From Myxococcota bacterium (GTDB taxonomy: Bacteria; Myxococcota_A; UBA9160; UBA6930), in the NCBI GenBank assembly GCA_965223705.1, contig OZ245015.1, forward strand, positions 3,296,001 to 3,360,000: DNA of 64,000 nucleotides. Reading direction: 5' to 3'. Shown here in pieces: positions 1 through 16,089 of the stretch. Position 1 is the stretch's first letter. Each line of letters starts with the position of its first letter. Below the pieces are notes generated by a model. It did not search any database. It had not been told where the DNA came from and worked only from the letters and a program-made list of their open reading frames with translations. Position numbers and translations under genes: made by a program.

Positions 1-94
1 CCGGACCGGCGCGGCGCTTCGAGCCACCGCCCAGGCTCGCCGGTGAAGCCATTGTGGCGTAGCGGCAGTATTCCGGGCCCCCGATTCACGATGA

Positions 95-484
95 ATGCCG
101 CAAAAGGATCCCGGTTACGTCACGCGCGCTCAAGAGGCGTTCGGTAGGTTCACCGGCGTATCGGAGGGAATCGAAGGGGGAATCGTGACCGGACCCGTGC
201 TGGCTCGACTCGTGGGCGATGGGCGCTTGTCGAAGCGCGCCATCGATGAGTGCCTCGAAGCTCTGTCCGACCGGAGCGTGCCCCGACCTGCCGGAGACGT
301 GACGGTTCGCTTGGACTCCTGCCTCCGCGAAATTCCGAAACCCGAGCGAGACGAATGGGTCTCCGACTTGTTGCGAGAACATTTCGGTCTGTCTGTGCCG
401 GGAAGCACGCTCGGGCGTGCATCGCAGATCGCGAGACGAAGGCGTTGGAGACGGCGTTCCGCTGGCTCTGCGATTTTTTTGTAA
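95..484 (+). CDS. hypothetical protein
   Basis: 129-aa ORF converging on the next gene; no recognisable motif. Confidence 0.3.
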   Translation: MPQKDPGYVTRAQEAFGRFTGVSEGIEGGIVTGPVLARLVGDGRLSKRAIDECLEALSDRSVPRPAGDVTVRLDSCLREIPKPERDEWVSDLLREHFGLSVPGSTLGRASQIARRRRWRRRSAGSAIFL

Positions 485-491
485 CGCCAGC

Positions 492-875
492 TCAACGGAC
501 CGGCCACAGCCGGGGAACAACCGCCTCCCCGCGCTCGTTCACGTAACAACGTTCGGCAATACTCGCCTCGATGTCGCGCTCGCCCAAGCCCGGGCTCGCG
601 TAGACGAGATCGATGATCTCGAGCAGGGCTCCCAGGGTGCGCTCCCGGTCGCTTACAAACGGGTTGTCCACGCTCTCCCGTGCCATTTCAATCTGCTCTT
701 GTCGCGACTCACCGCGCGCTTTTCCAGCGGCGACGATGCGAAACGCTTGAGCGAGCTCACCGCACACGTCGTCGCGACGCGGCGCCGAGACGTCTACGTC
801 CGCGACCGGCCCAAGGCGCACACAGGCGCCGGTGGCGAGAACCACGCTTACAAGAACGAGCGCGCGAAACATCAT
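492..875 (-). CDS. hypothetical lipoprotein
   Basis: Restarted at ATG 875: MMFRALVLVSVVLATGA-C signal peptide with lipobox; TAGCGT 7 nt upstream. Confidence 0.6.
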   Translation of the reverse strand: MMFRALVLVSVVLATGACVRLGPVADVDVSAPRRDDVCGELAQAFRIVAAGKARGESRQEQIEMARESVDNPFVSDRERTLGALLEIIDLVYASPGLGERDIEASIAERCYVNERGEAVVPRLWPVR

Positions 876-1060
876 CCGTTCGACGCTAGCGCCTATTCCG
901 TGAGGACGAATCCTCTCGCAATGCGCGGTGATTCCGCTTACGAGCCATCGTCTTGCCACACACGTTTCGTAGTCTCACAGCTCCAGAGGGGGGGCGAGGC
1001 GTCGCGGAATGGGGGTTCTGCCGCGCTTTGCGTGCTGTACGAGATCGCACAGTGCTCGAG

Positions 1061-1091
1061 CCGGATCGGTGTTGCGTGACCACCGATCCGG
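1061..1091. terminator. GC-rich hairpin, possible terminator or 3' stabiliser of the tetR-CoA transferase transcript
   Basis: Perfect 11-bp stem CCGGATCGGTG/CACCGATCCGG with a 9-nt loop, 30 nt past the CoA-transferase stop; no U-tract. Confidence 0.35.
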
Positions 1092-1121
1092 TTCACCCCG
1101 CCAACAGCACATATGGCGTAG

Positions 1122-2306
1122 CTAGGAGATCGCTCCACAGCTTCGCAGTCGCTCAATCGAGGCGTCGTCGTGCCCGAGCTCCCGGAGAACCTCATCCGTG
1201 TGCTCGCCCAGCGCAGGCGCCATGAAGCGTACTTCCGAGGGCGTGGCTTCGAAACGGGCGGTCGGTCGGGCCATGCGCATGGGGCCGCCGGCCGGGTGCT
1301 CGGCCTCAAACAGGCTGTTTCGATGGAGGATCTGCGGGTCGGTGTGGACCTCACTCAGTCGTCGAACCTTGGCGAAGGGAACTTCCTGAGCGTCGAGGCG
1401 GGCGCAAATCTCATCGGTCTTCCACTTCGCGAGTTCGCTGTCGAGGAGTTCGACCACTTCGTCGATTCGCGAAATCCGCGCGACCACCGTCGAGTACTTC
1501 GGATCCTCGGCGAGTTCGTCGCGGCCAATCGCCCGGCACATTCCACGCCACTCGTCGTCGGAAACGGTGAGGTACGTGATGCTTCCGTCGAGCGTTCGGG
1601 CGACCCGGTAGATGTCGCCCAGCGAGGGCATCGGGCGGACGCCCTCGCCGAGCCAAGTGTGGTTCCACATGCCGTCGGGCCACAAGAACGCGAGGCCGAC
1701 GTCCATCATCGTGACTTCGAGCGCTTGTCCCCCGGCGCCGCGTTCGCGCGCGTAGAGTGCAGCCGTGATCGCCTGCGCGGCATTCAACGCTGTCGCTTTG
1801 TCACAAACGATGTTCTTCACGAGTTCCGGCCGCGCATCGCCGCGCCTGCTCTGCACGTCGACGAAGCCGGTCAAACCCTGGATCACCGGATCGTACACAC
1901 GGCGGTCCGCATAGGGCCCGTCGGCGCCGAAACCGCTGATCGAAGCGTAGATGATGTCTTCCCGGGCGGCGCGGAGCACGTCGTAGCCGAGCCCCATTCG
2001 CTCCATCGCGCCCGGCCGAAAGTTCTGCACGACCACGTCCGCGGTCTTCACGAGATCGATGAGCAGCGAGCGACCGGATTCTTGGTGCGTGTCGATCACA
2101 ATCGACCGCTTGTTCCGGTTGAGCACCGCGAACATCGCGGCAGCCCCGTTTCGCACGGCGCCCATCTGGCGCGAGATGTCGCCACCCCTGGGCTGTTCGA
2201 CTTTGATGACGTCCGCGCCCTGGTCCGCGAGGACCTGAACGGCCATCGGGCCGGACACAACATTGGAGAGATCGATGATCCTGACGTCCGAGAGCGGACC
2301 GCTCAT
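1122..2306 (-). CDS. CaiB/BaiF family (class III) CoA transferase
   Basis: PLSDVRIIDLS..GP..LADQGADVIKVE, NRNKRS, VQNFRPG, YDPVIQ, APALGEHT motifs. Confidence 0.93.
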   Translation of the reverse strand: MSGPLSDVRIIDLSNVVSGPMAVQVLADQGADVIKVEQPRGGDISRQMGAVRNGAAAMFAVLNRNKRSIVIDTHQESGRSLLIDLVKTADVVVQNFRPGAMERMGLGYDVLRAAREDIIYASISGFGADGPYADRRVYDPVIQGLTGFVDVQSRRGDARPELVKNIVCDKATALNAAQAITAALYARERGAGGQALEVTMMDVGLAFLWPDGMWNHTWLGEGVRPMPSLGDIYRVARTLDGSITYLTVSDDEWRGMCRAIGRDELAEDPKYSTVVARISRIDEVVELLDSELAKWKTDEICARLDAQEVPFAKVRRLSEVHTDPQILHRNSLFEAEHPAGGPMRMARPTARFEATPSEVRFMAPALGEHTDEVLRELGHDDASIERLRSCGAIS

Positions 2307-2932
2307 TGCGCAACTCCTTCACGGTGCCGAAGGGCACCGTAGATCACGGTTTCGAGAAAGCGCTGGACCCGCGCCGGATCTCGTCGCGTGAACATCATTT
2401 GAGCGATCATGTTCCCGGATCCCACGACGAGATAGGCGGCCGCTTCGGGATCCACCGTCCGCATGAGTTCCCCGGATGCCTGGCCTTTGCGGATCACTTC
2501 GACGAAGGACCGGATGACGCGCGTCTGGAAGTCCTCGTAGAGGGGCCAGATCTCGTCCCGAACGGCGGTACTCCAATCCAGCCACACCTTGATGTGATCG
2601 GGGTGGCTCTCCGCGCGATGGGCGAACTCGCGGACGACAGCGAGCAAGGTGTCCGCGGCGCCTTCCTTGCGGGCGACGACATCCTGAATCATTTCGATGA
2701 GGAACCGGTCGACCTCGAGCAGGACCTCCCGGACGAGCTCCGCGCGCGTCGGGAAGTAGGAAAAAACCGTCGGCACAGCGACGCCGGCCTCAGCGGCGAT
2801 GGCCGCGTGGCGAGCCGAGCCGATCCCCTGCCGAGCGAACACGCGAATCGCGCAACCCAGCAGCTGGTCGCGCCTTTCCCCCCGGGGCAGACTCGGTGCC
2901 CTTTTTCGGACGAAAGCGGCGTCTTCGCTCAT
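2303..2932 (-). CDS. TetR-family regulator, HapR/SmcR/LuxR(V. harveyi)-like
   Basis: HTH VFARQGIG..HAAIA..GVAVPTVFSYFPTR; C-domain KVWLDWSTAVRDEIWPLY resembles HapR KVWFEWSASTRDEVWPLF (recalled); ATGA overlap with the CoA transferase. Confidence 0.9.
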   Translation of the reverse strand: MSEDAAFVRKRAPSLPRGERRDQLLGCAIRVFARQGIGSARHAAIAAEAGVAVPTVFSYFPTRAELVREVLLEVDRFLIEMIQDVVARKEGAADTLLAVVREFAHRAESHPDHIKVWLDWSTAVRDEIWPLYEDFQTRVIRSFVEVIRKGQASGELMRTVDPEAAAYLVVGSGNMIAQMMFTRRDPARVQRFLETVIYGALRHREGVAQ

Positions 2933-2935
2933 CGC

Positions 2936-2964
2936 TTGCAGAGTACCCGAGATCGAGTGATAAT
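2936..2964 (+). promoter_or_regulatory. sigma70-type promoter of the SDIMO operon
   Basis: TTGCAG-N17-GATAAT, 31 nt upstream of ATG 2996. Confidence 0.55.
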
Positions 2965-2974
2965 TTTATCATTC
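2955..2974. promoter_or_regulatory. palindromic operator, probable binding site of the divergent TetR
   Basis: GAGTGATAATTTTATCATTC (core TGATAA-TT-TTATCA); AT-rich patch in the 63-bp intergenic gap, overlapping the -10 box. Confidence 0.75.
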
Positions 2975-2995
2975 AACCGTGAAGGAAAGCAGCTG

Positions 2996-4027
2996 ATGTG
3001 CCCCCGTCCCGGACGCAAGCGCGGTAGCCAGCCGCACTTTCGCTACTTCGAACCCGCCAAGAAGCGCGCGTCGCAGTACGAAGAAGTCACCGTCCACACC
3101 CAGTGGGACCCGAAGAACTACGCCGCACAGGGATGGTTCAACCTCGATTCCCAAGGACGGGGAGCTTGGCACGACGATTCGACCGAGCTCCGGTCCGAGA
3201 ACTGGTGGGGCTACCGGGATCCAGGCCAGGAATGGTTCCGCCCGTTCGTCAATCGGCAGGCGTCGGTCGGCGATTCGATTACACAAGCGGTAGACGGCGC
3301 GAAGCGAAGCGGCGTGTTTCACGGCTTCACGCCCAAGTGGATCGAGTTTCTTCGCACTCATTACGCCGCCTACCGTTTCCCCGAGTACGGGCTCTTTCTC
3401 TGTCTGAGTCATGCGCAGCGTGAAGCGCTTTCCGACGTCGTCGCGAGTCCCTTGATGTTCCAGGGCCTCGAGAAGGATCGACACGCTCAGGACATCGCCC
3501 TCTACGGCATGGAGCTCGAAGACGCCATCCCGGGCTTCAGCGACGCGGACTGCAAAGCCGTTTGGATGGAGTCAACGGAGTGGCAACCGCTGCGCCGCTT
3601 CATCGAGGAACTCCTCGCCGCGCGAGACTGGGCAGAAATCAATCTCGCGATCAACCTGATTTACGAGCCCTTGGCCGCGGCACTGTTTGCGCGAGAGCTC
3701 GTGCTGCGTTTTGCGCCGCACCACGGCGACTCGGTCACGCCGGTGATCGTCGCCGGCGCCGAGGCCGACCGCGCGGTACGCGCAGAGAGCACCCGGGAGT
3801 TTGTTCGCTTCATCGTCGCGCAGGACGAAGGCAACCGAGACATCATCGACGGCTGGCTCGCCAACTGGAGCCCTCGGATGATCGATGCTTGCCGAGCCTT
3901 CGAGCCGTTCTTCACCGCTCCTGAGCACCCACCACAATCGTTCACAGAAGCCTTCGCCCGTGTGGTCGATGAGTGGCAAGCGAACCTCGGAGAACTCGGG
4001 CTGACCTGCCCGGCGGAGCGCTCATGA
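2996..4027 (+). CDS. soluble di-iron monooxygenase hydroxylase beta subunit
   Basis: Start moved to ATG 2996 (SD GAAGGA); KRASQYEEVTV, WWGYRDP, RHAQD, WQPLRRFIEE, DWAE..AINLIYEP motifs of AmoA/PrmC/MmoY-like subunits. Confidence 0.9.
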   Translation: MCPRPGRKRGSQPHFRYFEPAKKRASQYEEVTVHTQWDPKNYAAQGWFNLDSQGRGAWHDDSTELRSENWWGYRDPGQEWFRPFVNRQASVGDSITQAVDGAKRSGVFHGFTPKWIEFLRTHYAAYRFPEYGLFLCLSHAQREALSDVVASPLMFQGLEKDRHAQDIALYGMELEDAIPGFSDADCKAVWMESTEWQPLRRFIEELLAARDWAEINLAINLIYEPLAAALFARELVLRFAPHHGDSVTPVIVAGAEADRAVRAESTREFVRFIVAQDEGNRDIIDGWLANWSPRMIDACRAFEPFFTAPEHPPQSFTEAFARVVDEWQANLGELGLTCPAERS

Positions 4028-4323
4028 GCCCCACCGAGCTCCGCGAGAAGCACACGGTCAGCGCCAAGCTCATGGCGGGCGAAGAAGCGGAAGCCATCGC
4101 CGATGCCGTGCTCTCGAGCAACGCAGCCGCCGTCGTCGAGGACCACGGGGCGTACCTCGTGATCGAAGCCGAGCGCGAGCTCGTCTTCGATATGGAAGAC
4201 ATCGCGCTCGAACTCGGCCGCCCGTATGACGTGGCCGCGTTTCAGGTCGTCTTGTCGAGCTACACCGGGGAAGTCGACGTGCAAGATCGACAAGTTCTCA
4301 TCCGCGAAGCAATGAGCGGTTAG
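4024..4323 (+). CDS. SDIMO coupling/effector protein (MmoB/DmpM family)
   Basis: 99 aa from ATG 4024 (ATGA overlap); EDHGAYLVIEAE..ELGRPYD..VLSSYTG. Confidence 0.9.
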   Translation: MSPTELREKHTVSAKLMAGEEAEAIADAVLSSNAAAVVEDHGAYLVIEAERELVFDMEDIALELGRPYDVAAFQVVLSSYTGEVDVQDRQVLIREAMSG

Positions 4324-4342
4324 TGCAAAGGGAGTCCGCGCC

Positions 4343-5869
4343 TTGTCCACATCATTCACGCGTGCCTACGACCGGGTGAAAGCCATTGACTGGGAGCCGA
4401 CCCACATCTCGCCATCCGACAAGATGACGGAGACGACGCGGTTCCATCTCGAAGGCCTGACGCCGGCGGATCCGTTCAAGACGTCTCTGCGCGAGTACTT
4501 CAACATGGAACGCGAAAAGGACAGCCGTCACTACGCGATCCTCGAAGCGGCGAGTCGCCTTCAATCGGGAAGCCCCCATCCGCGTTGGATGGAGAGCATG
4601 AAGTTCGGTCTCTCGAACCTGATCGCCATCGAGTATTCCGCCGGCCGGCAGATGGGCCGGATGGTTCGAAGCGTTGCGCCGATGGAGCTCCGGCAGGGCT
4701 ACATGATGCAAGTGCTCGACGAGATCCGGCACTCGCAACTCGAGATGAACACCTTGCGCCACCACATGAGAACGTGGAGCGATCCGGCGGGCTACGACAT
4801 CGCGCTTCACGCGTCGGGCAACAGCGTGGGAGCGGGCATTTTCCGCTCGCTGATCGAGGACTTCATGACCGCCGATCCGGTGGAGACCTCGCTCGGGTTC
4901 CAGATCTTTATCGAAACGGCGTACACAAACTTCTTTTTCGTCGGGATGTCGACGGCGGCGGCGGCGCACGGCGACAACGCGCTCGCCTCTACCATGTTGA
5001 CCATCCAATCCGACGAGTCGCGTCACATGGCGAACGGCTGGACCACCCTCGCGACGCTCCTGCAGGACGACCGGAACCTGCCGCTCATTCAACAGGTGCT
5101 CGACAAGTGGGCCTGGCGAAGCCATGTGAGTTTCGGCGTCGGCAACGCGCTGTTCGGCGACTATTTTGTGAGAAATCGAACCGAATCGTCGAAAGAGATG
5201 GCCTTGCGCTGGGTCTTCGACGAGTTCTACGGCGCGTTCTACCAGAAGCTCGAGCGCTACGGAATCAAGCCGCCGCCGCACCTCGACCGCATGATTTCGG
5301 ATCTCGACACCATCTCCCACGCAGCGGCGATCTACCTGTTCGGTGCTTGGCCCGCGTTCTACCACCGCTACGACCCGCTGACGCCCGAAGAGATGGACTG
5401 GTTTGAGGAGAAGTACCCGGGCTGGTACTCGCACTTCGGCGGATTCTGGGAAGCCTATAACCAGATGACCGATCCCGACAACGCGACTCTCATCTTGAAA
5501 GAGCTGGGAGGTCTGCCGAACTTCTGCCAGGTCTGCCAACTGCCCACCGTCTTTCCGCGACCCGATGCGAACACCGGCCGCTCGGTGGAGCACGACGGGA
5601 AGACCTACGTCGCCTGCTCCCAAGGCTGCGAAGAGATTTTTCTGAACGATCCACTGCACTACTCGGGATTCAGGAGCTTCTACGATTTGTACAACGGGGA
5701 GGATCTGGCCGATGCGATACGCGACCTCGGCTACCTTCGCTCTGATGGAGAGACGTTGATCGCGCAACCGGTGCTCGAGCCCAAGCGCATGTGGACGCTC
5801 GAAGACATTCGCCGCTGCCAGTATCAAGTCGAAGCCCCGCCGCTTCCCCCGCCCGCTGTCGCGTCCTAG
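4343..5869 (+). CDS. SDIMO hydroxylase alpha subunit (AmoC/EtnC-like, divergent)
   Basis: Di-iron ligands EY, DEIRH, ETAYTN, DESRH; C-terminal CQVCQLP..CSQGC YHS-like region; TTG start with GGGAG SD. Confidence 0.95.
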   Translation: MSTSFTRAYDRVKAIDWEPTHISPSDKMTETTRFHLEGLTPADPFKTSLREYFNMEREKDSRHYAILEAASRLQSGSPHPRWMESMKFGLSNLIAIEYSAGRQMGRMVRSVAPMELRQGYMMQVLDEIRHSQLEMNTLRHHMRTWSDPAGYDIALHASGNSVGAGIFRSLIEDFMTADPVETSLGFQIFIETAYTNFFFVGMSTAAAAHGDNALASTMLTIQSDESRHMANGWTTLATLLQDDRNLPLIQQVLDKWAWRSHVSFGVGNALFGDYFVRNRTESSKEMALRWVFDEFYGAFYQKLERYGIKPPPHLDRMISDLDTISHAAAIYLFGAWPAFYHRYDPLTPEEMDWFEEKYPGWYSHFGGFWEAYNQMTDPDNATLILKELGGLPNFCQVCQLPTVFPRPDANTGRSVEHDGKTYVACSQGCEEIFLNDPLHYSGFRSFYDLYNGEDLADAIRDLGYLRSDGETLIAQPVLEPKRMWTLEDIRRCQYQVEAPPLPPPAVAS

Positions 5870-5877
5870 AGCTCGCG

Positions 5878-6903
5878 TTGGCACACGAGATTACGCTTCT
5901 ACCGTTCGGAATCACCTTCGCGTGCGAAGAGGACGAATCGATTCTCGACGCCTCGATTCGCCAAGGCATACAACTTCGCTACGGATGCAAGCACGGAGGC
6001 TGCGGGAGCTGTAAAGCCCAGATCGCCGATGGAGAGGTGGACGTCGAAGAAGCTTCGACGTTCGCGTTGATGGACTACGAGCGCGCCCAGGGACTCGCGC
6101 TGTTGTGCTCGGCCTATCCACTGTCGGACATCTCGATCGCGCTCGCGGATGACTACGAAGAAGCGGATTTGCATGGCGGAATCCCGGTCGGGGACTTCCG
6201 AGCGCAGGTCCGCGACGTGACGGAGTTGACCCACGACATCACGCACTTAGCGCTCACGGTGACGGACCCTTCTCCCATGGAGTTCCGAGCGGGCCAATAC
6301 GTCGAGATCAACGTGCCGGGAAGCGATGAATGGCGCGCATTTTCCATGGCCAACGCACCGAGCGACGCCGGACAGCTCGACCTCGTCCTCAAGATCCTCC
6401 CGGACGGGCTGTTCTCCCAACACGTCGCATCTGCGATCCGCTCGGGCGATCAGCTGGACCTTCGCGGTCCCTTCGGCCAGTTTGTTCTCACGGAGGGCAC
6501 GGCGCCGATCGTCATGGTCGCCGGTGGCTCCGGCATGGCTCCAATCTGGGCGATGCTCGAACAACTGGTCGCCGAAGGCTCGAAGCGCCCGGTAACGTTC
6601 TTCTACGGCGCGCGGTCCGTGCGCGATCTCTTCTGGACGCGCAAAATCGAAGCGCTGGGAGCCGAACTGCCAGAGTTCACCTACGTCCCGGCAATCTCGG
6701 ATCCGCGTCCGGAAGACGAATGGTCGGGTGAAGTCGGCCTCGTCACCGAGGTTGTCGACCGGCGCTGCGAGAGCTTGCGAGGGAGCGAGGCCTATCTGTG
6801 CGGCCCGCCGGCCATGATCGACGCGGCGATCGACGTACTCCGCGGAAAGGGCCTCTTCTCGACGCGAATTCGCTTCGACAAGTTCGTCAGCTCCGAGAGC
6901 TGA
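5878..6903 (+). CDS. SDIMO NADH reductase (2Fe-2S/FAD/NAD)
   Basis: CKHGGCGSCK..C ferredoxin domain, RAFSMAN, GGSGMAP, YLCGPP, DKF; TTG start inferred. Confidence 0.93.
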   Translation: MAHEITLLPFGITFACEEDESILDASIRQGIQLRYGCKHGGCGSCKAQIADGEVDVEEASTFALMDYERAQGLALLCSAYPLSDISIALADDYEEADLHGGIPVGDFRAQVRDVTELTHDITHLALTVTDPSPMEFRAGQYVEINVPGSDEWRAFSMANAPSDAGQLDLVLKILPDGLFSQHVASAIRSGDQLDLRGPFGQFVLTEGTAPIVMVAGGSGMAPIWAMLEQLVAEGSKRPVTFFYGARSVRDLFWTRKIEALGAELPEFTYVPAISDPRPEDEWSGEVGLVTEVVDRRCESLRGSEAYLCGPPAMIDAAIDVLRGKGLFSTRIRFDKFVSSES

Positions 6904-6923
6904 GTCCGCGGTATGCTCCCGCT

Positions 6924-7328
6924 ATGGACGATCACGCACGCGACGAGTTAGCTCGGGCGACTCGAGAATTCACGGACGCCTTCAACCGAAACGACCTGGA
7001 TTCGGTGTTGTCGCACTTTGCGCAGCACAAAGCGGTTTACGAGCAATTCGATGGTCGGATCGCGGACGGCCTCGAGGCGATTCGCGACGCGCTCGTGCCC
7101 CAGTTCCGGGGTGATTTCGGCGAGATGAAGTTTCTCGAGGAAGATGCGTTTGTCGATCCCGAACAGCGCAAGACACTGATTCGGTGGCGCTGCACCCTCG
7201 ACACTCGACAGGGCCCCGCGAGCTGGCGTGGGCTCGATATCCTGCACTTCGATGCCGACGGAAAAATCCGCGCGAAGCTGACCTACGCCAAGGCGAAGAA
7301 GCTCGCCTTGGAGAACGACCCCGGCTAG
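6924..7328 (+). CDS. SnoaL/NTF2-like protein
   Basis: FTDAFNRNDLD..F...GLEAIR..WRGLDILHFDADGKI pattern. Confidence 0.8.
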   Translation: MDDHARDELARATREFTDAFNRNDLDSVLSHFAQHKAVYEQFDGRIADGLEAIRDALVPQFRGDFGEMKFLEEDAFVDPEQRKTLIRWRCTLDTRQGPASWRGLDILHFDADGKIRAKLTYAKAKKLALENDPG

Positions 7329-8566
7329 AAGAAGACGAACGACCTCACCACGACGTTCTTGCGGCACCGCGCGTCTCCGGGTGCCGTCGGATCGACGCAT
7401 GCGGAGTGGAAGGACCAGCGCGACACCGAGCCGTCGCGAACCGAGTCGTAGCACTTCAGCATGGAGACCTCGGTGGAAGTCTGCTGCGGAATCCAATACC
7501 ACTCGTGGTCGGGGCGGTGCGTGAAGCGCGTCGTTTCTCCAACGCGGTCGTCGTAGATGCGATAGTTCGTAATGTAGGGCTGGTCCGCGAACGAAGGCCA
7601 CGCACACAGCACAAACGGGTACTGCTCCACCGTCTCCATGGGCTTGGCCAAGTTGATCGACATGAACCGGCGCGACATCTTCGCGTCGGCTTCCGCTTCG
7701 GTGTAGTGCTGCTCGCGTCCGAAGTTTCGCAGGTTCTTCGTCAGGAGCTCGCGACAGCGGACGCGCCCGCTGTTGTCGTTGAGATCGTTGTGAACGATGT
7801 TGGCGTAGAAGTTGTTGACGCCCGGATTCTTATTGTCCTGATCCTCGGTGCGGTCGCCCTCGTAATCCTTGTCGAAGACGTCGTGGTTGTAGACGAGCGC
7901 GTCGGTCGCCCCTGGGAAGAACTCGAGGAGCAGCTTCTCCATCTCGGGGTAGAAAACGCGCTCGACTTCCGCGGCGTCGTAAAAGTTCTCGCACTTGGAC
8001 TCGCAGTGGGCCAAAGAGACACCGAGGCGATCCATGCATTCCGGGCTGCTGGGCGAGAGACCGGGATAGTACGTCGCGATCCTTCGCGCGTCGCGCAGGA
8101 CTTGCGGGAAATAGAGACAGCGCCGGTCGTTGTCGCGTTCGTCCTTGCGGAGCGCGTGTGCGTCCGCTTCACGGGCCGGATCCCTCCACAAGGCGTTCGA
8201 CGAAACCACGGAATAGGAAGGTGCCTCGAAGATCGAGTAGCGAAGCGGCAGCACGACGCCGCCCTCCGGCGCGGTCAAGCCACTCTCGCGGATGTAGTCG
8301 ACGCACTCGGCCCATTTGCGGAAGCCGAGGCCCCATTTCGTCTCGATCGGCCCCGGCGGAGCGCTCTCGATCATGTCGGTGACGGCCTGACCCTCCCCAC
8401 TGGCGATCTGGTCGAGCGCCGCGCGGGTCGCCGCTTCCGTGCCTGCGTCGCCGCCTCGGTCGAGGGACATGTACGAGAGCCCACCGTTCGCCGCGATGGG
8501 CGGTGGCTGCCCTTCCGTGAGCTCGAGGGTCGGTACGAATGCCGAGGCTTCTTCGGCGTGATCCAT
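7325..8566 (-). CDS. CmcJ/NvfI (AsaB-like) family oxidoreductase with N-terminal extension
   Basis: FYDAAEVERVFYPE, VHND, HEWYWIPQQ..EVSMLKCYDS, HSACVDP, RKNVVVR; start at ATG 8566 (GGAG SD). Confidence 0.75.
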   Translation of the reverse strand: MDHAEEASAFVPTLELTEGQPPPIAANGGLSYMSLDRGGDAGTEAATRAALDQIASGEGQAVTDMIESAPPGPIETKWGLGFRKWAECVDYIRESGLTAPEGGVVLPLRYSIFEAPSYSVVSSNALWRDPAREADAHALRKDERDNDRRCLYFPQVLRDARRIATYYPGLSPSSPECMDRLGVSLAHCESKCENFYDAAEVERVFYPEMEKLLLEFFPGATDALVYNHDVFDKDYEGDRTEDQDNKNPGVNNFYANIVHNDLNDNSGRVRCRELLTKNLRNFGREQHYTEAEADAKMSRRFMSINLAKPMETVEQYPFVLCAWPSFADQPYITNYRIYDDRVGETTRFTHRPDHEWYWIPQQTSTEVSMLKCYDSVRDGSVSRWSFHSACVDPTAPGDARCRKNVVVRSFVFF

Positions 8567-8655
8567 GAGCGGGTCTCCGATCGGGTGCCCTACATCGTGA
8601 CACAATCGGCGCGGATCGGCCTATCGGGGGCGGGATTGCAGCGCGAGCCCTCGGG

Positions 8656-9354
8656 CTAGTTCGCGGCACCCGTGCGAAACGCCTGTGCGGAGAGCCCCTG
8701 GGCAGTTCCTCCCGCGTAGTGTGCATAACGCGGAATGAAGTACGCGAGATCGTGACAGGTCTCGGCGACGGCGGGCCGTTCCGCCACGACCGCGAGCCAG
8801 CGGCGCAAGCGGGCACAGTCCCCGGGAATCCGTAGGCCACGGTAGTGCTCGAAAACAGGGACGCGCTCGAAGAACGGAAAGAAGGCCGCGTCGACCAAGC
8901 TCATCTGCGGGCCCAGCCAGTACGGTCCGTCGCCCTGAAGCGCCTCGAGGCGCCCCTCGAGAAATCGCATCCCGTCCTCGACCTCACCGCGCAGCTCCGC
9001 CTGCTCCGCGGGCTCTTGCGAGAAGAGCATGCGATAGAGCACCGGCAAGAACACGTTGTCCAAATGTCGGATCTCGCCCCGCATGACGGCCAGTCCACGC
9101 TCATCGCCCGGGCGCAGCGCCTCGCCGGGAAAGCTGCCGTCCAGGTATTCGTTCACGATCGCGGATTCCCACAAGACGAAGTCGCCGTGGCGGATGACAG
9201 GAACGCGGCCCGTCGGCGTGAGCTCGATCAGCCAGTCCGGCTTGTCGTCGAGATCGATCTCGACTTGCTCGTGGGCGATCCCCTTCTCTCCCAGGACAAT
9301 GCGTGTTCGTTGCGCGTAGGGACAGACTTCTGCGGTGTAGAGGGTGAGGCTCAT
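8656..9354 (-). CDS. glutathione S-transferase (omega-like, CPYA active site)
   Basis: CPYAQR, GRVPVI, WESAIVNEYLD, SLVDAAFFPFFER. Confidence 0.9.
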   Translation of the reverse strand: MSLTLYTAEVCPYAQRTRIVLGEKGIAHEQVEIDLDDKPDWLIELTPTGRVPVIRHGDFVLWESAIVNEYLDGSFPGEALRPGDERGLAVMRGEIRHLDNVFLPVLYRMLFSQEPAEQAELRGEVEDGMRFLEGRLEALQGDGPYWLGPQMSLVDAAFFPFFERVPVFEHYRGLRIPGDCARLRRWLAVVAERPAVAETCHDLAYFIPRYAHYAGGTAQGLSAQAFRTGAAN

Positions 9355-9443
9355 CGCGAGGCAGTTTAGCCGAGTTGGATTCCCAGAGACGGTCGGGAGC
9401 CGATTCCCTACAATGGCGTGCGACCCATCAAACGGAGCTCATC

Positions 9444-9914
9444 GTGAACATACCCACGACGCCCGCGCAGTTCGCGGATACGTACGACACCGACAAGCTC
9501 GACTGGATTCGCGTTACGGGGACACCCCGTTTCACGTATCCCATCGACTACTGGGTCGCGGTGCTCGGCGTTGACGAGGCAGCGGGACGGATCGACTTCC
9601 TCTCGCGCTGGGAGCCCGACTCCTATTGTCACTACCACCGCCACTTGGGAGAGACATCGCTTCTCGTCCTCGAGGGCGAACATCACGTCGTCGAGACGAC
9701 CGAGACCGAGACCATTCACAAGACGCGGCGACCGGGATTCTTCACCACGAACCCCGGCGGTGACTTGCATATGGAGTACGGCGGCCCCGACGGCACCCTG
9801 GTCTATTTCAGCTGCCTCGCCGTAGATGGCAAGGTGTTCGACGTCGTCGGGGACAACGACCGGATTCTCAAGACCGCGACCGTCGAAGACTTTACGTCCG
9901 GAAAAATCGCCTAA
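9444..9914 (+). CDS. cupin-domain protein (ChrR-like cupin)
   Basis: GTG start with GGAG SD; YCHYHRH..VLEGEH..HMEYGG. Confidence 0.75.
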   Translation: MNIPTTPAQFADTYDTDKLDWIRVTGTPRFTYPIDYWVAVLGVDEAAGRIDFLSRWEPDSYCHYHRHLGETSLLVLEGEHHVVETTETETIHKTRRPGFFTTNPGGDLHMEYGGPDGTLVYFSCLAVDGKVFDVVGDNDRILKTATVEDFTSGKIA

Positions 9915-9918
9915 CCGA

Positions 9919-10548
9919 CTACCGAAAGACCGTTCGAAGCGTCAGGTTGATCCGCGGGCGGGCGATGCGCTTTCGCTTCGGCAACTGATGGGCCCACCGC
10001 GTCTGTGATCCCCGCCCCATGAGCAGAAGAGAACCGTGGCGGAGAGCGCACTTCACGTGGGGAAGCTCGCGCCGGTAACGGTGCCTGAGCACGAAATCGC
10101 GGGTCTCTCCAAAACTCACCGAGCCGATGATCGGGTCTTCCCCGAACTCCTTCTCGTCGTCACTGTGCCAGCCGACGCTGTCGTTCCCGTCGCGATACAG
10201 CGTGACCAACACGCCGTTGAACGAAACCCCCGTGAGCTTCCGCACGCGCTCCCGAATGGCATTGAGGGGGTCGGTCATGGCAAGGGGCTCGACCTGCAGA
10301 CCCGAGTAGCAAAGCGTCAGGCCCTCCTCCGCATACCAGGCTTGAAGGCGAGGAATCGGCACAAGTTTTCCGTGAATCCGGATCCGATCGCTGCGCCAGG
10401 GAGTCTCGGCGCGGAGCGACTCAAAAAATCGATCGGACTCCGCCGCGGAGAACGCGCGTGGGTAGTAATCCAACTCGGCGTCAGCCAGACCGATCGACTG
10501 TTTCTGTGCGGAAGCAGCCCCCACCGCGAACAGCGATTGCTGAGTCAA
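9919..10548 (-). CDS. AlkB-family Fe(II)/2OG dioxygenase (ALKBH2/3-like DNA repair)
   Basis: PRLQAWY, YRDGNDSVGWHSDDE, H, RINLTLR. Confidence 0.92.
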   Translation of the reverse strand: MTQQSLFAVGAASAQKQSIGLADAELDYYPRAFSAAESDRFFESLRAETPWRSDRIRIHGKLVPIPRLQAWYAEEGLTLCYSGLQVEPLAMTDPLNAIRERVRKLTGVSFNGVLVTLYRDGNDSVGWHSDDEKEFGEDPIIGSVSFGETRDFVLRHRYRRELPHVKCALRHGSLLLMGRGSQTRWAHQLPKRKRIARPRINLTLRTVFR

Positions 10549-10560
10549 CGCGCCGTGCCG

Positions 10561-12150
10561 TCAGCCCAGCTGGAACCCGGCGTAGCCCGAGGCGGCGACT
10601 TCGTCACACTTCTCTCGGTAGACCGCCATACCTCCGATGTACGGCATGAAGATACGCGGCTTGCCAGGGACATTCGCGCCGACGTACCAAGACGCCGCCT
10701 CGGGAAAGAGCGTCGCGTCGGCGACTTGGTTGACGTGATCCACCCAGGATTGCTCGGCGTCGGGGAGTGCCTCGATGACATCGTGCCGGTGATCTCTCAG
10801 GTAGACCAAACAGTCCGCGATCCATTCGACGTGCTGCTCGATCGACAGAATCATGTTCGACATGACCGAAGGGCTCCCCGGTCCCGTGATCATGAACAGA
10901 TTCGGGAATCCCTCCACGGCGAGCCCGAGATAGGTGCGCGGGCCCTCGCTCCATTTTTCCTTCAGGGGGCGCCCGCCCTTGCCGCGGAGGTCGACGTTCT
11001 CCACGGCACCCGTCATCGCGTCGAAACCCGTCGCCAGCACGATCGCATCGTAAGGATGCTCCGCCTCGGACGTCTGCACGCCATCCTCGGTGATGCGCTG
11101 GATCGGCGTCTTGCGAAGGTCGACGAGCTTTACGTGGGATTGGTTGAATGTCGCGTAGTAGTCGGTGTCGAGGCAGATTCTTTTCGTGCCGATCGGGAAA
11201 CTCGTCGGACACAGCAGTTCCGCCGTCTCGGGATCGTGCACGACCTCACGAATCTTTCCCCGCACGAAATCCGCAGCCGTCGCGTTCGCAGCCTTGTCGA
11301 TGAGCAGATCGTTGAACTGCTGCATCACCGCCACGATTTCGCCCCGTTCCCAAGCCGCCTGGTATTTGCGCTCGCGTTCGGCGGCGTCGACCTCGAACGC
11401 ACCCGTATCGAGCGGGGCATCGGGCACGCCGAACGAGGAATGGCGCGAACGGTGACGATGTTCGGGGTAGCGCGCTTTCCAAGCCTCGCGCTCGTCTTCC
11501 GCAAGTTCGCGGTTATAGGCCGGGAGACTGAAAGCCGGCGTGCGTTGGTAGACGGTGAGTTCGGACGCTTGCTTCGCGATCAGGGGAATCGATTGAATCG
11601 CCGAGGAACCGGTGCCGACGACACCGACGCGCATCCCGCTGAAATCGACGCCTTCCTCGGGCCAGCGAGCGGTGTGGTAGACCTCTCCTTCGAAGCTCTC
11701 GAGGCCCTCGATATCGACTTCTTTCGGCACGGAGAGGCAGCCCGTCGCGAACACGCAATACGCCGCTTCGAACGCCTCGCCCGCTTCGGTCCGAATCCGC
11801 CAGCACGTGTTCTCCTCGTCGAAGTGAGCCGATGAGACCCGCGTATCGAATTGGATATCGCGCCGAAGGTCGTAACGGTCGGCGACGTGATTCGCATAGC
11901 GGAGGATTTCCGCCTGGGGCGCGTATTTCTCACTCCAGTTCCATTCGCGCTGGAGCTCTTCGTCGAAGGAGAAGCAGTAGTCCATACTTTGGACGTCGCA
12001 GCGCGCGCCCGGATAGCGGTTCCAGTACCAAGTACCGCCCACGCCGGAGCCCGCCTCGAGCACTCGGACGGAAAAGCCCAGCCCCCGGAACTTGTAGAGC
12101 GAGTACATCCCCGCAAAACCCGCTCCGACCACAATGACGTCGTACTGCAT
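10561..12150 (-). CDS. type I Baeyer-Villiger monooxygenase
   Basis: GAGFAG, GGTWYWNRYPG, fingerprint FEGEVYHTARWP, GTGSS, ATGFDA. Confidence 0.95.
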   Translation of the reverse strand: MQYDVIVVGAGFAGMYSLYKFRGLGFSVRVLEAGSGVGGTWYWNRYPGARCDVQSMDYCFSFDEELQREWNWSEKYAPQAEILRYANHVADRYDLRRDIQFDTRVSSAHFDEENTCWRIRTEAGEAFEAAYCVFATGCLSVPKEVDIEGLESFEGEVYHTARWPEEGVDFSGMRVGVVGTGSSAIQSIPLIAKQASELTVYQRTPAFSLPAYNRELAEDEREAWKARYPEHRHRSRHSSFGVPDAPLDTGAFEVDAAERERKYQAAWERGEIVAVMQQFNDLLIDKAANATAADFVRGKIREVVHDPETAELLCPTSFPIGTKRICLDTDYYATFNQSHVKLVDLRKTPIQRITEDGVQTSEAEHPYDAIVLATGFDAMTGAVENVDLRGKGGRPLKEKWSEGPRTYLGLAVEGFPNLFMITGPGSPSVMSNMILSIEQHVEWIADCLVYLRDHRHDVIEALPDAEQSWVDHVNQVADATLFPEAASWYVGANVPGKPRIFMPYIGGMAVYREKCDEVAASGYAGFQLG

Positions 12151-12258
12151 TCCCTGTCTCCTCCGGCCCGAAAGGCCCCGCTAGTTTACCCGGCCTCTCC
12201 CGACCCCTCGAGTCTGGTAGAATGCTCGGCGCCAATCACCCAAGCCCCGAGGTCCAAG

Positions 12259-12705
12259 ATGACTACCGTCCCTTTCAGCCTCTATGACCAGGAAATCAGC
12301 TGGCAACCCTTCGCCGGGATCGAAAATCTCGAGCTCTCTCTGTGCGACGTCGATCCCAGGCGCGGTATCGTGGACCTGGTGGTGCGCTTTGCACCGAACA
12401 AGACGGTGACGATGCACAATCATCTCGCCCCGACCAATATGTTCATCATTCAAGGGGAGCTTCGGATGTACGAGCCCGACGGCTCGGTACGCGAAGCCCG
12501 TAGTGCTGGACACTACTTCCCGGGTACCACGAACGATGTCCACAGCGAGGGGGGCGGCCCCGATGGCGCCGTCGTCTTCTACAGCGTTCGCTCCGACGGA
12601 AACGCCGCACTGTTCGAGGTGATGAACGACGATCAGACCGTCGCCGCGACCGTGACGATGGACGACGTCATGGCTCTTTGGGAAGCCCAGCAGGCCGCTG
12701 CCTAG
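12259..12705 (+). CDS. cupin-domain protein (ChrR-like cupin)
   Basis: ATG 12259; HNH..IIQGE..HSEGGG; similar to the cupins at 9444 and 29753. Confidence 0.75.
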   Translation: MTTVPFSLYDQEISWQPFAGIENLELSLCDVDPRRGIVDLVVRFAPNKTVTMHNHLAPTNMFIIQGELRMYEPDGSVREARSAGHYFPGTTNDVHSEGGGPDGAVVFYSVRSDGNAALFEVMNDDQTVAATVTMDDVMALWEAQQAAA

Positions 12706-12746
12706 GGTTCTTTAGGGTCCCCTGCGGCGGGCTACACTCCGGCGCG

Positions 12747-13871
12747 ATGAAATTCCACGTAATCGTCTACTGCACGATGGGCACCCGCGCCGAAATTGAA
12801 CTCGGCATGGCGGGTAAGCGCCCCGAACTCTACCAGCGCATGCTCCGCAATTTGCGCGAATACATCGAGATCTGTGATGAAGGGGGCTTCGAAGGCTTCG
12901 GGCACCCCGAACATCACCTGCAGATCGAGGGCATGGAGGCGACGGGAAGCCCAGGCATCCTCAGCATGTTCATCGGCCAGCACGCGAAGCGGATGAAGGT
13001 CGACATCCTCGGTTACGTCATGAGCACCCACAATCCGCTGCGGGTCGCCGAGGACGTCGCGATGATGGACCACATGTTGGAAGGCCGGCTCAACGTCGCC
13101 TTTGTTCGCGGCTACCAAGCGCGTTGGGTGCAGAACTACGCCACGCGCGCCGAGTTTCACCCGGTCGGCCCGTGGAACAAGCAGAGCGAAGACGACCGCC
13201 GCAATCGGCGGGCTTTCGAGGAAGCGGTCGCAATCGTTAAACGCGCCTGGACCGAGGACACCTTCTCTCACCGCGGTGAGTTCTGGACGATTCCGCCGGA
13301 GGGAGCGAAGAACCCGCATCCCATGGATGCGTACACCCGCTATGGAGCCGGGGTCGACGATGCGATGCAGATCCACGAAGTCGGCATCGCGCCCCGGCCG
13401 TTCCAGTCACCGCACCCGCCGCTCTATGCGGGCTTTACACACAGTACGGAGTCGGTCCGTTTCTGGGGACGCGAAGGCGGAAAGCCGATCGTGATTCTGC
13501 TGAACGAAGAACTCTGCGCGAAGCTACGCGACGCGCTCCGCGAAGAAGCGGAGAAGGCGGATCGCTGTGTGACGCCCGGAACGGAGTTGGCGCTCGGCGG
13601 CCAGCTCGTGCTGGCGCGCAGCGACGCCGAAGCGCGTGCGATTCAGAACGACACGGACTGGTTCTGGAGCCAGTGGGGCGTGCCGTTCGGCTTGGGCACG
13701 CCGGAGTACATCATCGGAGACGCCGACACGATTTCCCGGCAAATCGAGCGCGCCGAGAAGATCGGGACCGACGAGATGTTTTTCCTGTTGGGCGATGGGC
13801 TCCTCGACCACGACATTGTGAAGCGTACGCTTGAAACGTTCTCGGAGAGGGTCCTTCCGCGTTTCTCGTAG
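12747..13871 (+). CDS. luciferase-like (LLM class) flavin-dependent oxidoreductase
   Basis: PEHH, HNPLRVAEDVAMMDHMLEGRL, PRPFQSPHPP. Confidence 0.88.
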   Translation: MKFHVIVYCTMGTRAEIELGMAGKRPELYQRMLRNLREYIEICDEGGFEGFGHPEHHLQIEGMEATGSPGILSMFIGQHAKRMKVDILGYVMSTHNPLRVAEDVAMMDHMLEGRLNVAFVRGYQARWVQNYATRAEFHPVGPWNKQSEDDRRNRRAFEEAVAIVKRAWTEDTFSHRGEFWTIPPEGAKNPHPMDAYTRYGAGVDDAMQIHEVGIAPRPFQSPHPPLYAGFTHSTESVRFWGREGGKPIVILLNEELCAKLRDALREEAEKADRCVTPGTELALGGQLVLARSDAEARAIQNDTDWFWSQWGVPFGLGTPEYIIGDADTISRQIERAEKIGTDEMFFLLGDGLLDHDIVKRTLETFSERVLPRFS

Positions 13872-13898
13872 CGATTCGCTACACGCTAAGATCTCGCC

Positions 13899-14789
13899 AT
13901 GTCTGTGCTCCCCGGAATCGTCGGCGTCTCGCGTCCAAACTTTCTGACGCTGTCCGTCATGCTCATCGCTTCGGCGACGGCTGCCGCACGCTGTGCGGGT
14001 CCGTGGTCGCTGGGCTCCGCTTTGCTGGCGCTCATCGGTTTGGTGGCGCTTCACGCCGCCGTCGATGCCATCAACGAAGGCGCGGATGCGATCTCGGGTA
14101 TTGACGATCGAACGGTGCGCACCCCGTTTAGCGGGGGCACCGGAACGATTCAGGCCGGGACGATCAGCGCGCGAGGCGCCTACCTGTGGGGCTTCGTCTG
14201 TTGCGCCATCGGCGCGGGAATTGGTGTCTGGTTCTTGCTGCGGGTCGGCGTTGCCCTACTCCCGATCTTGGCGCTCGGCGCGGTCTCGGTCCTCGCCTAT
14301 ACACACCTCTTGCTGCGAGTCGGCTTGGGTGAAGTCTTTGCTGGCCTGGGTCTTGGTGCACTTCCGGTACTCGGCGCGAGCATGATCCAATCCGGGGTCA
14401 TCCCACAGGAAGCCGCTGCGATCGCGGTTCCGTCTTTCTTCATGACGTTCAACTTGCTGCTGCTCGCGGAGTTCCCCGACACCGAGGCCGATGCTTTCGG
14501 CGGCCGGCGGCACCTCGTCATCCTGTTGGGTCGGCGCTATGCCGCGTGGGTCTACGCCGCTGCAGGTCTCGCTGCGCCCCTTTCGATTGCGGCGAGCGTC
14601 GCGATGGGATGGCTCCCGGCGGTTTGCTTGCTCGCGTGTCTCCCGACGCTGTTTCTAGTCCCTGCGTTTCGCTGGGCGTTTCTCGAGCCGGAACACCCGA
14701 CTCCGATTGCCGCCCTCACGGGCAACGTCATCTGGAATCTCTCAACTCACGCCGTACTCGCCGGTACGCTTTTTTGGGCGTGTTCCTAG
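13899..14789 (+). CDS. menA: UbiA-family prenyltransferase, MenA-like
   Basis: SRP, NEGADAISGID, PFSGG, EFPDTEADAFGGRR; multiple TM helices. Confidence 0.75.
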   Translation: MSVLPGIVGVSRPNFLTLSVMLIASATAAARCAGPWSLGSALLALIGLVALHAAVDAINEGADAISGIDDRTVRTPFSGGTGTIQAGTISARGAYLWGFVCCAIGAGIGVWFLLRVGVALLPILALGAVSVLAYTHLLLRVGLGEVFAGLGLGALPVLGASMIQSGVIPQEAAAIAVPSFFMTFNLLLLAEFPDTEADAFGGRRHLVILLGRRYAAWVYAAAGLAAPLSIAASVAMGWLPAVCLLACLPTLFLVPAFRWAFLEPEHPTPIAALTGNVIWNLSTHAVLAGTLFWACS

Positions 14790-14804
14790 GAGGTAAGGAA
14801 TCAC

Positions 14805-15185
14805 ATGGACCATGACCGTGAGATCCGCGAAATGTTCGCTTGTCTCGACCGAGACGGTGTGCCGGGCCTGTTCCCCTATCTCACCGAAGACGTGCTGTTT
14901 CGCTTCGCCGGCTACCCGGAAGGTCGGGGAAGAGAGACTTTCGCGACCGTCTGGGAGCAGATGTCGCCCAAGATTCGGACCCTGGAACACGCGATCGCCG
15001 AGACCATTCGATCGGGAGACACCATCTATTGCCACGGTACGGTGACGTACCACCTGTTCGATGCCGACCCCATCTGTGTGCCCTTCGCGAACCGGTTCTG
15101 CCTGGCGGGCGATCTCATCAGCGAATATCACATCTACGTCGATGCATCGCCGGTGTTCGGAGCGGCCCCTCCTCCCGAGAGCTAG
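14805..15185 (+). CDS. SnoaL/NTF2-like protein
   Basis: Strong AGGAGG SD; LTEDVLFRFAG..G...ISEYHIYVD. Confidence 0.8.
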   Translation: MDHDREIREMFACLDRDGVPGLFPYLTEDVLFRFAGYPEGRGRETFATVWEQMSPKIRTLEHAIAETIRSGDTIYCHGTVTYHLFDADPICVPFANRFCLAGDLISEYHIYVDASPVFGAAPPPES

Positions 15186-15190
15186 GCCCG

Positions 15191-15991: not shown

Positions 15992-16089
15992 CGCAAGCTC
16001 CTGCTGAGAAGTTACAGAAGTGAAGCCCACGACGCGGAACTTCGCACACCGAGCTATGACATACTGCGGGCAGACGCCACGGAGGAAGC

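What the first reader, a model, noticed from the sequence alone, without database searches (positions are those of the whole stretch)
2996..6903. Complete divergent SDIMO with alkene-monooxygenase (group 4) gene order in a Gram-negative genome
Seen: an intact beta-coupling-alpha-reductase operon with no gamma subunit or Rieske ferredoxin, and all di-iron ligands present. Known: this order and composition match amoABCD/etnABCD, described mainly from Actinobacteria; propane monooxygenases use other orders. The alpha subunit has DEIRHSQLE, like AmoC DEVRHAQLE (recalled), and an AmoC-like C-terminus. Active-site segments differ (LIAIEYSA vs LTNAEYQA; RSLIEDF; NFFFVGMS). No coenzyme M genes flank the operon. 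Inference: a possible new SDIMO subgroup with a different substrate range.
Basis: partly seen in the sequence, partly recalled or inferred. Interest (0 to 1): 0.85.

Follow-up and report, generated by a model that had tools for sequence, protein, structure and literature searches.

The report
Group 7 di-iron monooxygenase operon
An uncultured Gram-negative bacterium carries four intact genes for an iron enzyme that likely belongs to the recently described "group 7" family and likely turns carbon-carbon double bonds into epoxides; the family's natural substrate is unknown, and the conserved regulator gene beside the operon could be used to find it.

Summary
The operon is real and intact: beta 2996-4027, coupling protein 4024-4323, alpha 4343-5869, reductase 5878-6903, with all six iron ligands and no room for a gamma subunit or Rieske ferredoxin. 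The host is a diderm of Myxococcota type, and nothing suggests a chimera. It is not group 4: identity to EtnC/PmoC is 39-40% and the tree test rejects it. It is also unlikely to be a new subgroup. Alpha falls in a discrete clade (58-89% identity) with Nevskia, Sinimarinibacterium, Spongiibacteraceae, Gammaproteobacteria and Myxococcota sequences, which matches published Group 7 (ZmoABCD of Solimonas soli: same gene order, Gram-negative, alkene epoxidation, natural substrate unknown). ZmoC itself could not be fetched, so membership is indirect (about 0.9). New here: the clade is far wider than the 14 published sequences; no coenzyme-M transferase lies beside any of 53 loci; 26 of 53 carry a HapR/LuxR-like TetR; and the window's operator equals the core of the Vibrio LuxR repression site. 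The genome also holds group 2, 5 and 6 enzymes. Look-ups in this scan's earlier notes showed no group 7 on other DNA. Verdict: new member of a known kind.

The parts
2303..2932 (-). HapR/LuxR/OpaR-like TetR regulator, divergent from the operon
   Evidence: Best PDB hits OpaR, HapR, LuxR, SmcR at E 9e-27 to 5e-22, next TetR 4e-9; NF040929 94.6 bits, below its cut-off of 350; homologue in 26 of 53 clade loci
2958..2971 (.). Palindromic operator-like site, pattern TGAYA-N4-TRTCA, in the 63-base gap between tetR and beta
   Evidence: Pattern occurs exactly twice in the 4.56 Mb genome; read on the minus strand it equals the 14-base core of the LuxR repression site in PMC8034623; binding not tested
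2996..4027 (+). Hydroxylase beta subunit (ZmoA/EtnA position), 343 aa
   Evidence: PF02332 E 1.5e-51; 53-69% to clade betas in L001-L024, 34-38% to EtnA
4024..4323 (+). Coupling (effector) protein, 99 aa
   Evidence: PF02406 E 1.5e-21
4343..5869 (+). Hydroxylase alpha subunit with di-iron site, 508 aa
   Evidence: PF02332; model pLDDT 80.4, pTM 0.83; TM 0.85-0.89 to sMMO alpha; tree placement
4631..5026 (+). Stretch of alpha carrying the six iron ligands E97, E127, H130, E191, E225, H228
   Evidence: Alignment to sMMO 1FYZ/4GAM; invariant in 35 of 35 clade sequences
5878..6903 (+). NADH reductase ([2Fe-2S] + FAD + NAD domains), 341 aa
   Evidence: PF00111, PF00970, PF00175; start matches the L001 orthologue

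Best explanation
This is an intact four-gene soluble di-iron monooxygenase, likely a member of Group 7 (ZmoABCD type), that likely epoxidises carbon-carbon double bonds and is likely repressed by the neighbouring HapR/LuxR-like TetR. Shown here: the genes, the ligands, the clade, the regulator and the palindrome. From established SDIMO chemistry: the reductase passes electrons from NADH through FAD and a [2Fe-2S] cluster to the di-iron centre of an alpha2beta2 hydroxylase, the coupling protein gates the reaction, and one atom of O2 goes to the substrate, the other to water. Inferred from ZmoABCD: C2-C8 alkenes, isoprene and acrylate would be epoxidised. Inferred from context (about 0.45 on its own): the natural substrate is a non-gaseous unsaturated organic compound sensed by the TetR, and the epoxide is removed by hydrolases or glutathione transferases and CoA-linked steps, not by coenzyme M.
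For: Clade: 51 of the 120 listed homologues lie at 58-88%, then identity drops to 46% or less; a profile search returned the same set; one full-length 50%-identity cluster stands for it. Careful tree of 47 rows: 18 clade rows on a 0.50 stem, support 100/99, apart from groups 1-6; the window groups at 100/100 with Nevskia, Sinimarinibacterium, Spongiibacteraceae and Gammaproteobacteria rows. Identity to the group references is under the review's cut-offs where tested: 40.2% to EtnC NBB4 and 37.5% to the NBB4 group 6 reference (cut-offs 50%). AU test: window with group 4 rejected, p 1.6e-7; whole clade with group 4 rejected, p 0.019 (26 rows). Group 7 as published has this order, is Gram-negative, and lists Nevskia sp., Myxococcales sp., Spongiibacter, Zhongshania and four Gammaproteobacteria MAGs. 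The genomes behind L014 and L010 hold one clade member plus two and one group 6 alphas, the numbers that Table S3 lists under neighbouring accessions; the tie between accession series and these records is recalled. Order beta-coupling-alpha in 49 of 53 clade loci, the other 4 cut by contig starts; reductase directly behind in 32 of 39 scorable loci; EtnE in 0 of 53; epoxide hydrolase within the fetched flank in 3 of 53. Glu at the sMMO C151 position in 35 of 35, as in groups 4 and 6. Alpha-beta complex model: 0.90 against best control 0.00, runs agree in at least 84% of contacts, partner pLDDT at least 88; the mark was reached by 116 of 157 solved and 2 of 215 mismatched pairs, and this pass probably reflects likeness to solved hydroxylases.
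Against: ZmoC was not obtained, so the defining 60% test was not run; no hit was named Solimonas, Zhongshania or Aestuariicella. L010 has no adjacent reductase although the review says all 14 members do, so my match of that record may be wrong. No activity was measured. Pocket residues vary inside the clade (positions 170, 171, 174, 195), so the substrate range may differ from ZmoABCD. Neighbours are not conserved beyond the regulator: flavin monooxygenases of the luciferase type 14 of 53, short-chain dehydrogenases 7, Baeyer-Villiger type 6, acyl-CoA synthetases 6, Rieske oxygenases 5, which points to no single pathway. The window's GST gave only one weak match among L001-L024. Sixteen of 36 loci with upstream room lack a divergent TetR. 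The palindrome pattern was drawn from these same loci, so its enrichment (exact in 5 of 19 against 0.01 expected) is partly circular.
Confidence: 0.85

Rival explanations
1. It is an undescribed SDIMO group, separate from Group 7.
For: ZmoC not compared directly; no Solimonas-named hit. A second beta-coupling-alpha-reductase clade exists (P0056-P0067, L094-L104), so gene order alone does not fix the group.
Against: Host lists match. The second clade is 49-54% identical to EtnC and 46-55% to the group 6 reference, and its named members are Deltaproteobacteria and Binatia, so it does not fit a mostly gammaproteobacterial group described as distant from all others. The search of 50%-identity representatives shows no other full-length cluster above 39%.
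Confidence: 0.07
2. It is a Group 7 enzyme whose natural job is hydroxylation or heteroatom oxidation (a cyclic, aromatic or S/N-bearing compound), with alkene epoxidation only a side activity.
For: No coenzyme M genes in 53 loci or the genome; flavin monooxygenases, Rieske oxygenases and an extradiol dioxygenase are common neighbours; a bulky residue at the G113 position is shared with XamoA and DmpN; the review states that the natural substrate of ZmoABCD was not found.
Against: The only assayed member oxidises alkenes; Glu at the C151 position and I/V/L at the G208 position (31 of 35) follow group 4; epoxide hydrolases flank 3 loci.
Confidence: 0.35
3. It is a divergent, horizontally acquired group 4 alkene monooxygenase used for growth on ethene or propene.
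For: Same gene order as etnABCD; group 4 gives the best named characterised hits; patchy spread, 2 of 193 genomes of the order.
Against: 39-40% identity, under the 50% cut-off; AU p 1.6e-7; no EtnE orthologue or ComA, whereas etnE lies directly upstream in NBB4 and JS614.
Confidence: 0.01

Closest known systems
Group 7 SDIMO, ZmoABCD of Solimonas soli DCY12 (Yang et al. 2024, not held; known to me through the review PMC11825192, sections 3.4, 3.6, 3.7, methods and Tables S1-S3 in part)
   Same: Order beta-coupling-alpha-reductase, no gamma or ferredoxin, Gram-negative host, clade distant from groups 1-6, matching host list that already includes one Myxococcales sequence.
   Different: Host is of Myxococcota type, in a sub-branch sister to the gammaproteobacterial rows (63-73% identity). 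The genome holds three more SDIMOs. The HapR-like regulator and operator are not mentioned in the review passages found. No activity data for this branch.
Group 4 alkene monooxygenases (EtnABCD of Mycolicibacterium chubuense NBB4 and Nocardioides JS614; PmoABCD of Mycobacterium M156)
   Same: Gene order, four components, Glu at the C151 position, Leu/Val/Ile at the G208 position.
   Different: 39-40% alpha identity; Ile against Ala at the G113 position, Asn92, Gly163, Phe167, Phe198-Phe199; no coenzyme M pathway; separate clade.
Group 6 propane-1-monooxygenases (PrmABCD of Mycobacterium dioxanotrophicus PH-06)
   Same: Four components; 38% alpha identity.
   Different: Order alpha-beta-coupling-reductase; separate clade. 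The genome has its own group 6 operon about 11 kb away.
Vibrio LuxR/HapR/SmcR/OpaR regulators and their repression site (PMC8034623, passages read)
   Same: Nearest solved relatives of the flanking TetR; the window's palindrome equals the 14-base core of the LuxR repression site.
   Different: Far below the family cut-off (94.6 against 350 bits); only two exact sites in the genome, so it looks like a local regulator, not a global quorum-sensing one.

Membership tests
SDIMO (all groups) | Hydroxylase alpha and beta, coupling protein and reductase | tested here: met
   Pfam
SDIMO (all groups) | Six di-iron ligands (E, DExRH, E, DExRH) in a sMMO-like fold | tested here: met
   TM 0.85-0.89 to sMMO alpha
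Group 7 (Zmo) | Order beta-coupling-alpha-reductase, no gamma or ferredoxin | tested here: met
   definition
Group 7 (Zmo) | Alpha in a coherent clade distant from groups 1-6 | tested here: met
   100/99 support, stem 0.50; highest clade-to-outside identity 50.3%, lowest within 53.0%
Group 7 (Zmo) | At least 60% identity to ZmoC WP_051362144.1 over 80% coverage | not testable with these tools
   ZmoC not obtained. Proxy: 67.3% to the Nevskia sp. protein P0017, 63.2% to Sinimarinibacterium P0032, 64.3% to Spongiibacteraceae P0035; lowest to any of 34 clade rows 57.7%
Group 7 (Zmo) | Clade holds the listed members of Table S3 | tested here: inconclusive
   Host names and counts of co-resident group 6 enzymes fit; accession numbers could not be read, and L010 lacks the adjacent reductase
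Group 7 (Zmo) | Epoxidation of C2-C8 alkenes | not testable with these tools
   Needs expression and assay
Group 4 alkene monooxygenases | At least 50% identity to EtnC NBB4 | tested here: not met
   40.2%
Group 4 alkene monooxygenases | Branches with EtnC/PmoC | tested here: not met
   AU p 1.6e-7; tree
Group 4 alkene monooxygenases | Order beta-coupling-alpha-reductase | tested here: met
Group 6 | At least 50% to WP_014805366.1 and order alpha-beta-coupling-reductase | tested here: not met
   37.5%; order differs
LuxR/HapR/OpaR regulators (NF040929) | Score above the curated cut-off | tested here: not met
   94.6 against 350 bits; it resembles them but is not a member

The most novel reading that the evidence does not exclude
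Group 7 enzymes across Myxococcota and Proteobacteria form a regulon with a dedicated ligand-sensing HapR/LuxR-like repressor that binds a LuxR-type palindrome. Its ligand is the unknown natural substrate of Group 7, an abundant non-gaseous unsaturated compound oxidised without coenzyme M. A reporter built from window 2303-2995 would identify it, and could also hint at what the Vibrio quorum-sensing regulators' ancestors sensed.
Probability: 0.3. Interest if true: 0.7.

Novelty: new member of a known kind. Interest (0 to 1): 0.36.

Why it matters
Group 7 is the newest SDIMO group, with one assayed enzyme and, by the 2025 review, no known natural substrate, inducer, structure or pathway. This locus does not add a new group, but it adds handles: about 50 clusters at 90% identity against 14 published sequences, hosts beyond marine Gammaproteobacteria, a conserved regulator with a predicted operator for finding the inducer, and a pocket signature for mutagenesis. 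Alkene-epoxidising SDIMOs from Gram-negative hosts are wanted for biocatalysis and for vinyl chloride removal.

Tried and rejected
ZmoC sequence: not among named hits of two homologue searches, plasmids hold nothing at 60% or more (0 of 73 records), the cluster-member look-up could not be made, and the primary paper is not held. NCBIfam has no model for the alpha subunit. The protein atlas gave only general SDIMO clusters. No Rfam match in the window. No sigma-70-like promoter found in 2700-7500. No RNA holder listed among 5 runs; this says nothing about expression. Run X3 has no cover over about 6001-7500, which proves nothing. Downstream genes (SnoaL 6924-7328, CmcJ-like, cupins, 2OG oxygenase, UbiA) have no homologue in L001-L024 and were left out of the system. 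A conserved shared operator for group 6 and group 7 operons was considered and not supported beyond this genome: none within about 1.5 kb of the group 6 alphas of G072, G073, G061, G062, and both exact sites of G072 lie at its group 7 locus. Paper searches: searches found Group 7 only in PMC11825192 and one citation in PMC13471431 (passages read); one search listed 20 of 22 papers, none with HapR or SmcR; two searches found nothing of use; PMC13390413 (passages) had nothing on SDIMOs; PMC5812538 (one passage) confirms only Leu110 as a pocket residue. The other sMMO pocket positions are from my own knowledge. bioRxiv supplements are closed and the figures of the review were not seen.
Full report
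Observation. The four genes are present as described and intact: beta 2996-4027, coupling protein 4024-4323, alpha 4343-5869 and reductase 5878-6903. The gaps are too small for a gamma subunit or a Rieske ferredoxin. The six iron ligands align with those of sMMO. An AlphaFold2 model of alpha (pLDDT 80.4, pTM 0.83) matches sMMO alpha at TM 0.85-0.89 and the aromatic hydroxylases at 0.72-0.77. A modelled alpha-beta pair scored 0.90 against a best control of 0.00, with at least 84% of contacts shared between runs and partner pLDDT of at least 88; 116 of 157 solved and 2 of 215 mismatched pairs reach that mark, and likeness to solved hydroxylases probably explains the pass.

Host. The genome is 4.56 Mb, 95% complete, 0.6% contaminated. 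It encodes LpxC. Of the 120 RecA relatives listed, 11 carry an organism name: 6 Myxococcota or Myxococcales, 2 Deltaproteobacteria, 1 Proteobacteria, 2 'bacterium'. The operon's G+C is 62.1% against 64.7% for the chromosome, in a region of about 62-64%, and its tetranucleotide distance is ordinary. One contig of run X1 spans window 1-7903 with one difference, though that run may be the source. The contig is thus neither actinobacterial nor evidently chimeric. The genome has four SDIMO clusters, which the tree places as this one, a group 6 operon about 11 kb upstream (55.9% to the group 6 reference), a group 5 and a group 2. Among 193 genomes of the same order only this one and G072 hold the clade; none of 32 others of the same family does.

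Placement. Of 120 listed homologues of alpha, 51 lie at 58-88% identity and the rest at 46% or less; a profile search added no further full-length member, and the whole set is one full-length cluster at 50% identity. Named members include Nevskia sp., Sinimarinibacterium flocculans, a Spongiibacteraceae bacterium and Candidatus Binataceae. Genome contigs gave 24 clade loci of 28 and metagenomes 29 of the 79 kept. With named references fetched from plasmids, a quick tree of 86 rows and a careful tree of 47 rows both give the clade a long, well supported stem (100/99) apart from groups 1-6. The window is 40.2% identical to EtnC of NBB4 and 37.5% to the group 6 reference, under the review's 50% cut-offs. 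On 26 rows the AU test rejects the window joined with group 4 (p 1.6e-7) and, more weakly, the whole clade as sister of group 4 (p 0.019).

What is known. The 2025 review PMC11825192 (I read the abstract, introduction, methods, sections 3.1, part of 3.2, 3.4, 3.6, 3.7, found passages, and parts 1 and 4 of 8 of its supplement plus a search in it) defines Group 7 as a coherent distant clade with the group 4 gene order, 14 sequences, almost all Gammaproteobacteria with one Myxococcota, and a 60% cut-off to ZmoC. [quoted passage not shown] I could not obtain ZmoC or the primary paper, so the 60% test was not run. The indirect case: the host lists match; the window is 67.3% identical to the Nevskia protein and never under 57.7% to any of 34 clade rows; and the genomes behind L014 and L010 hold one clade member plus two and one group 6 alphas, as Table S3 lists under neighbouring accessions (the tie of accession series to these records is recalled). 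Against: L010 has no adjacent reductase, whereas the review says all 14 have one, and no hit was named Solimonas. The only other clade found with this order is 49-54% identical to EtnC and has no named gammaproteobacterial member, so it is a poor candidate for Group 7. I put membership at about 0.9.

Pocket. In sMMO numbering taken, the clade has Ile/Val/Leu at G113 (35 of 35; Ala or Gly in the group 3, 4 and 6 references, but Val in XamoA and Leu in DmpN), Glu at C151 (35 of 35, as groups 4 and 6), Ile/Val/Leu at G208 (31 of 35, as group 4), Asn at F109 (33 of 35), Gly at W181 and Phe at I217 (35 of 35), and Thr or Ser at T213. They suggest a differently shaped cavity but do not name a substrate.

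Context and regulation. Across 53 clade loci the order beta-coupling-alpha holds in 49 (4 cut by contig starts), the reductase follows directly in 32 of 39 scorable loci, is displaced in 2 and missing in 5, and no EtnE-like gene occurs. Other neighbours vary: luciferase-type monooxygenases 14, short-chain dehydrogenases 7, Baeyer-Villiger type 6, acyl-CoA synthetases 6, Rieske oxygenases 5, epoxide hydrolases 3. The genome has three epoxide hydrolases of that family elsewhere and a glutathione transferase at 8656-9354. Its nearest solved relatives are OpaR, HapR, LuxR and SmcR, but it scores far below that family's cut-off. The pattern TGAYA-N4-TRTCA occurs exactly twice in the genome, at window 2958 and upstream of the group 6 operon. 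It is exact in 5 and within one mismatch in 8 of 19 tetR-side regions, against 0.01 and 0.45 expected from base shuffles; the pattern came from these loci, so that test is partly circular, but the window's site also equals the core of the published LuxR repression site (PMC8034623, passages read). In G072 both exact sites lie at the group 7 locus and G073, which has no clade member, has none; control of the group 6 operon by the same site seems particular to this genome. Binding and the direction of control are untested.

Mechanism. Established SDIMO chemistry gives the electron path and oxygen activation. By likeness to ZmoABCD the enzyme would epoxidise small alkenes. The lack of coenzyme M genes and the mixed catabolic neighbours make growth on ethene or propene unlikely; I think the natural substrate is more likely a non-gaseous unsaturated compound sensed by the TetR (about 0.45), with hydroxylation or heteroatom oxidation as the main rival (about 0.35).

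Verdict. A real, intact enzyme of a described but barely studied group: a new member of a known kind. Its value lies in the wider clade and in the regulator, which makes the open question of Group 7's natural substrate testable. The link between Group 7 and a HapR-like regulator was not found in the review passages or in the search, but the primary ZmoABCD paper could not be read and may mention it. Interest 0.36.

Noticed in passing
G000:C1:3283795-3287695 (-), about 8-12 kb before the window: A complete group 6 SDIMO operon (alpha-beta-coupling-reductase) with the genome's only other exact copy of the palindrome at C1:3287767.
   Followed up: partly
G000:C1:1844072-1849839 and C1:2768064-2773442: A group 5 operon with GroEL and a group 2 phenol hydroxylase cluster whose reductase lies upstream; four SDIMO groups in one genome.
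   Followed up: partly
P0056-P0067, P0071; L094-L104: A second clade with order beta-coupling-alpha(-reductase), named members Deltaproteobacteria and Binatia, 49-54% to EtnC and 46-55% to the group 6 reference, branching beside groups 3 and 6 (80/94) rather than with group 4. It fits no published group cleanly and may be the better candidate for a new subgroup.
   Followed up: partly
L003, L006, L010, L018, L106: Clade operons with no reductase behind alpha; in the four genomes searched the best reductase match is 41-44%, against 52-70% for cognate ones in L001-L024, so they may borrow a reductase from another SDIMO. MAG gaps are not excluded.
   Followed up: partly
L093 and L103 (one contig); L073:2876-7124: Group 7-type operons lie close to a second SDIMO in other genomes too: about 17 kb apart on one contig, and directly in tandem in L073.
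   Followed up: no
L003, L006, L007, L010, L015, L016, L018, between tetR and beta: A conserved promoter-like block (TTGAC hexamer followed by a conserved stretch ending in an operator half-site) replaces the full palindrome in this branch.
   Followed up: no
L004, L005, L007: Records titled Klebsiella pneumoniae are metagenome bins whose loci resemble those of uncultured Gammaproteobacteria (L007 is syntenic with L008 and L009); the titles are probably mislabelled.
   Followed up: no
G000:C1:3518060-3518641 (-): A second HapR-like TetR paralogue, 40% identical to the window's.
   Followed up: no
window 6924-16030: Cluster of small catabolic or detoxifying genes: two SnoaL-like proteins, CmcJ/NvfI oxidoreductase, glutathione transferase, two ChrR-like cupins, 2OG-Fe(II) oxygenase, Baeyer-Villiger-type and luciferase-type monooxygenases, UbiA prenyltransferase, alpha/beta hydrolase.
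   Followed up: partly
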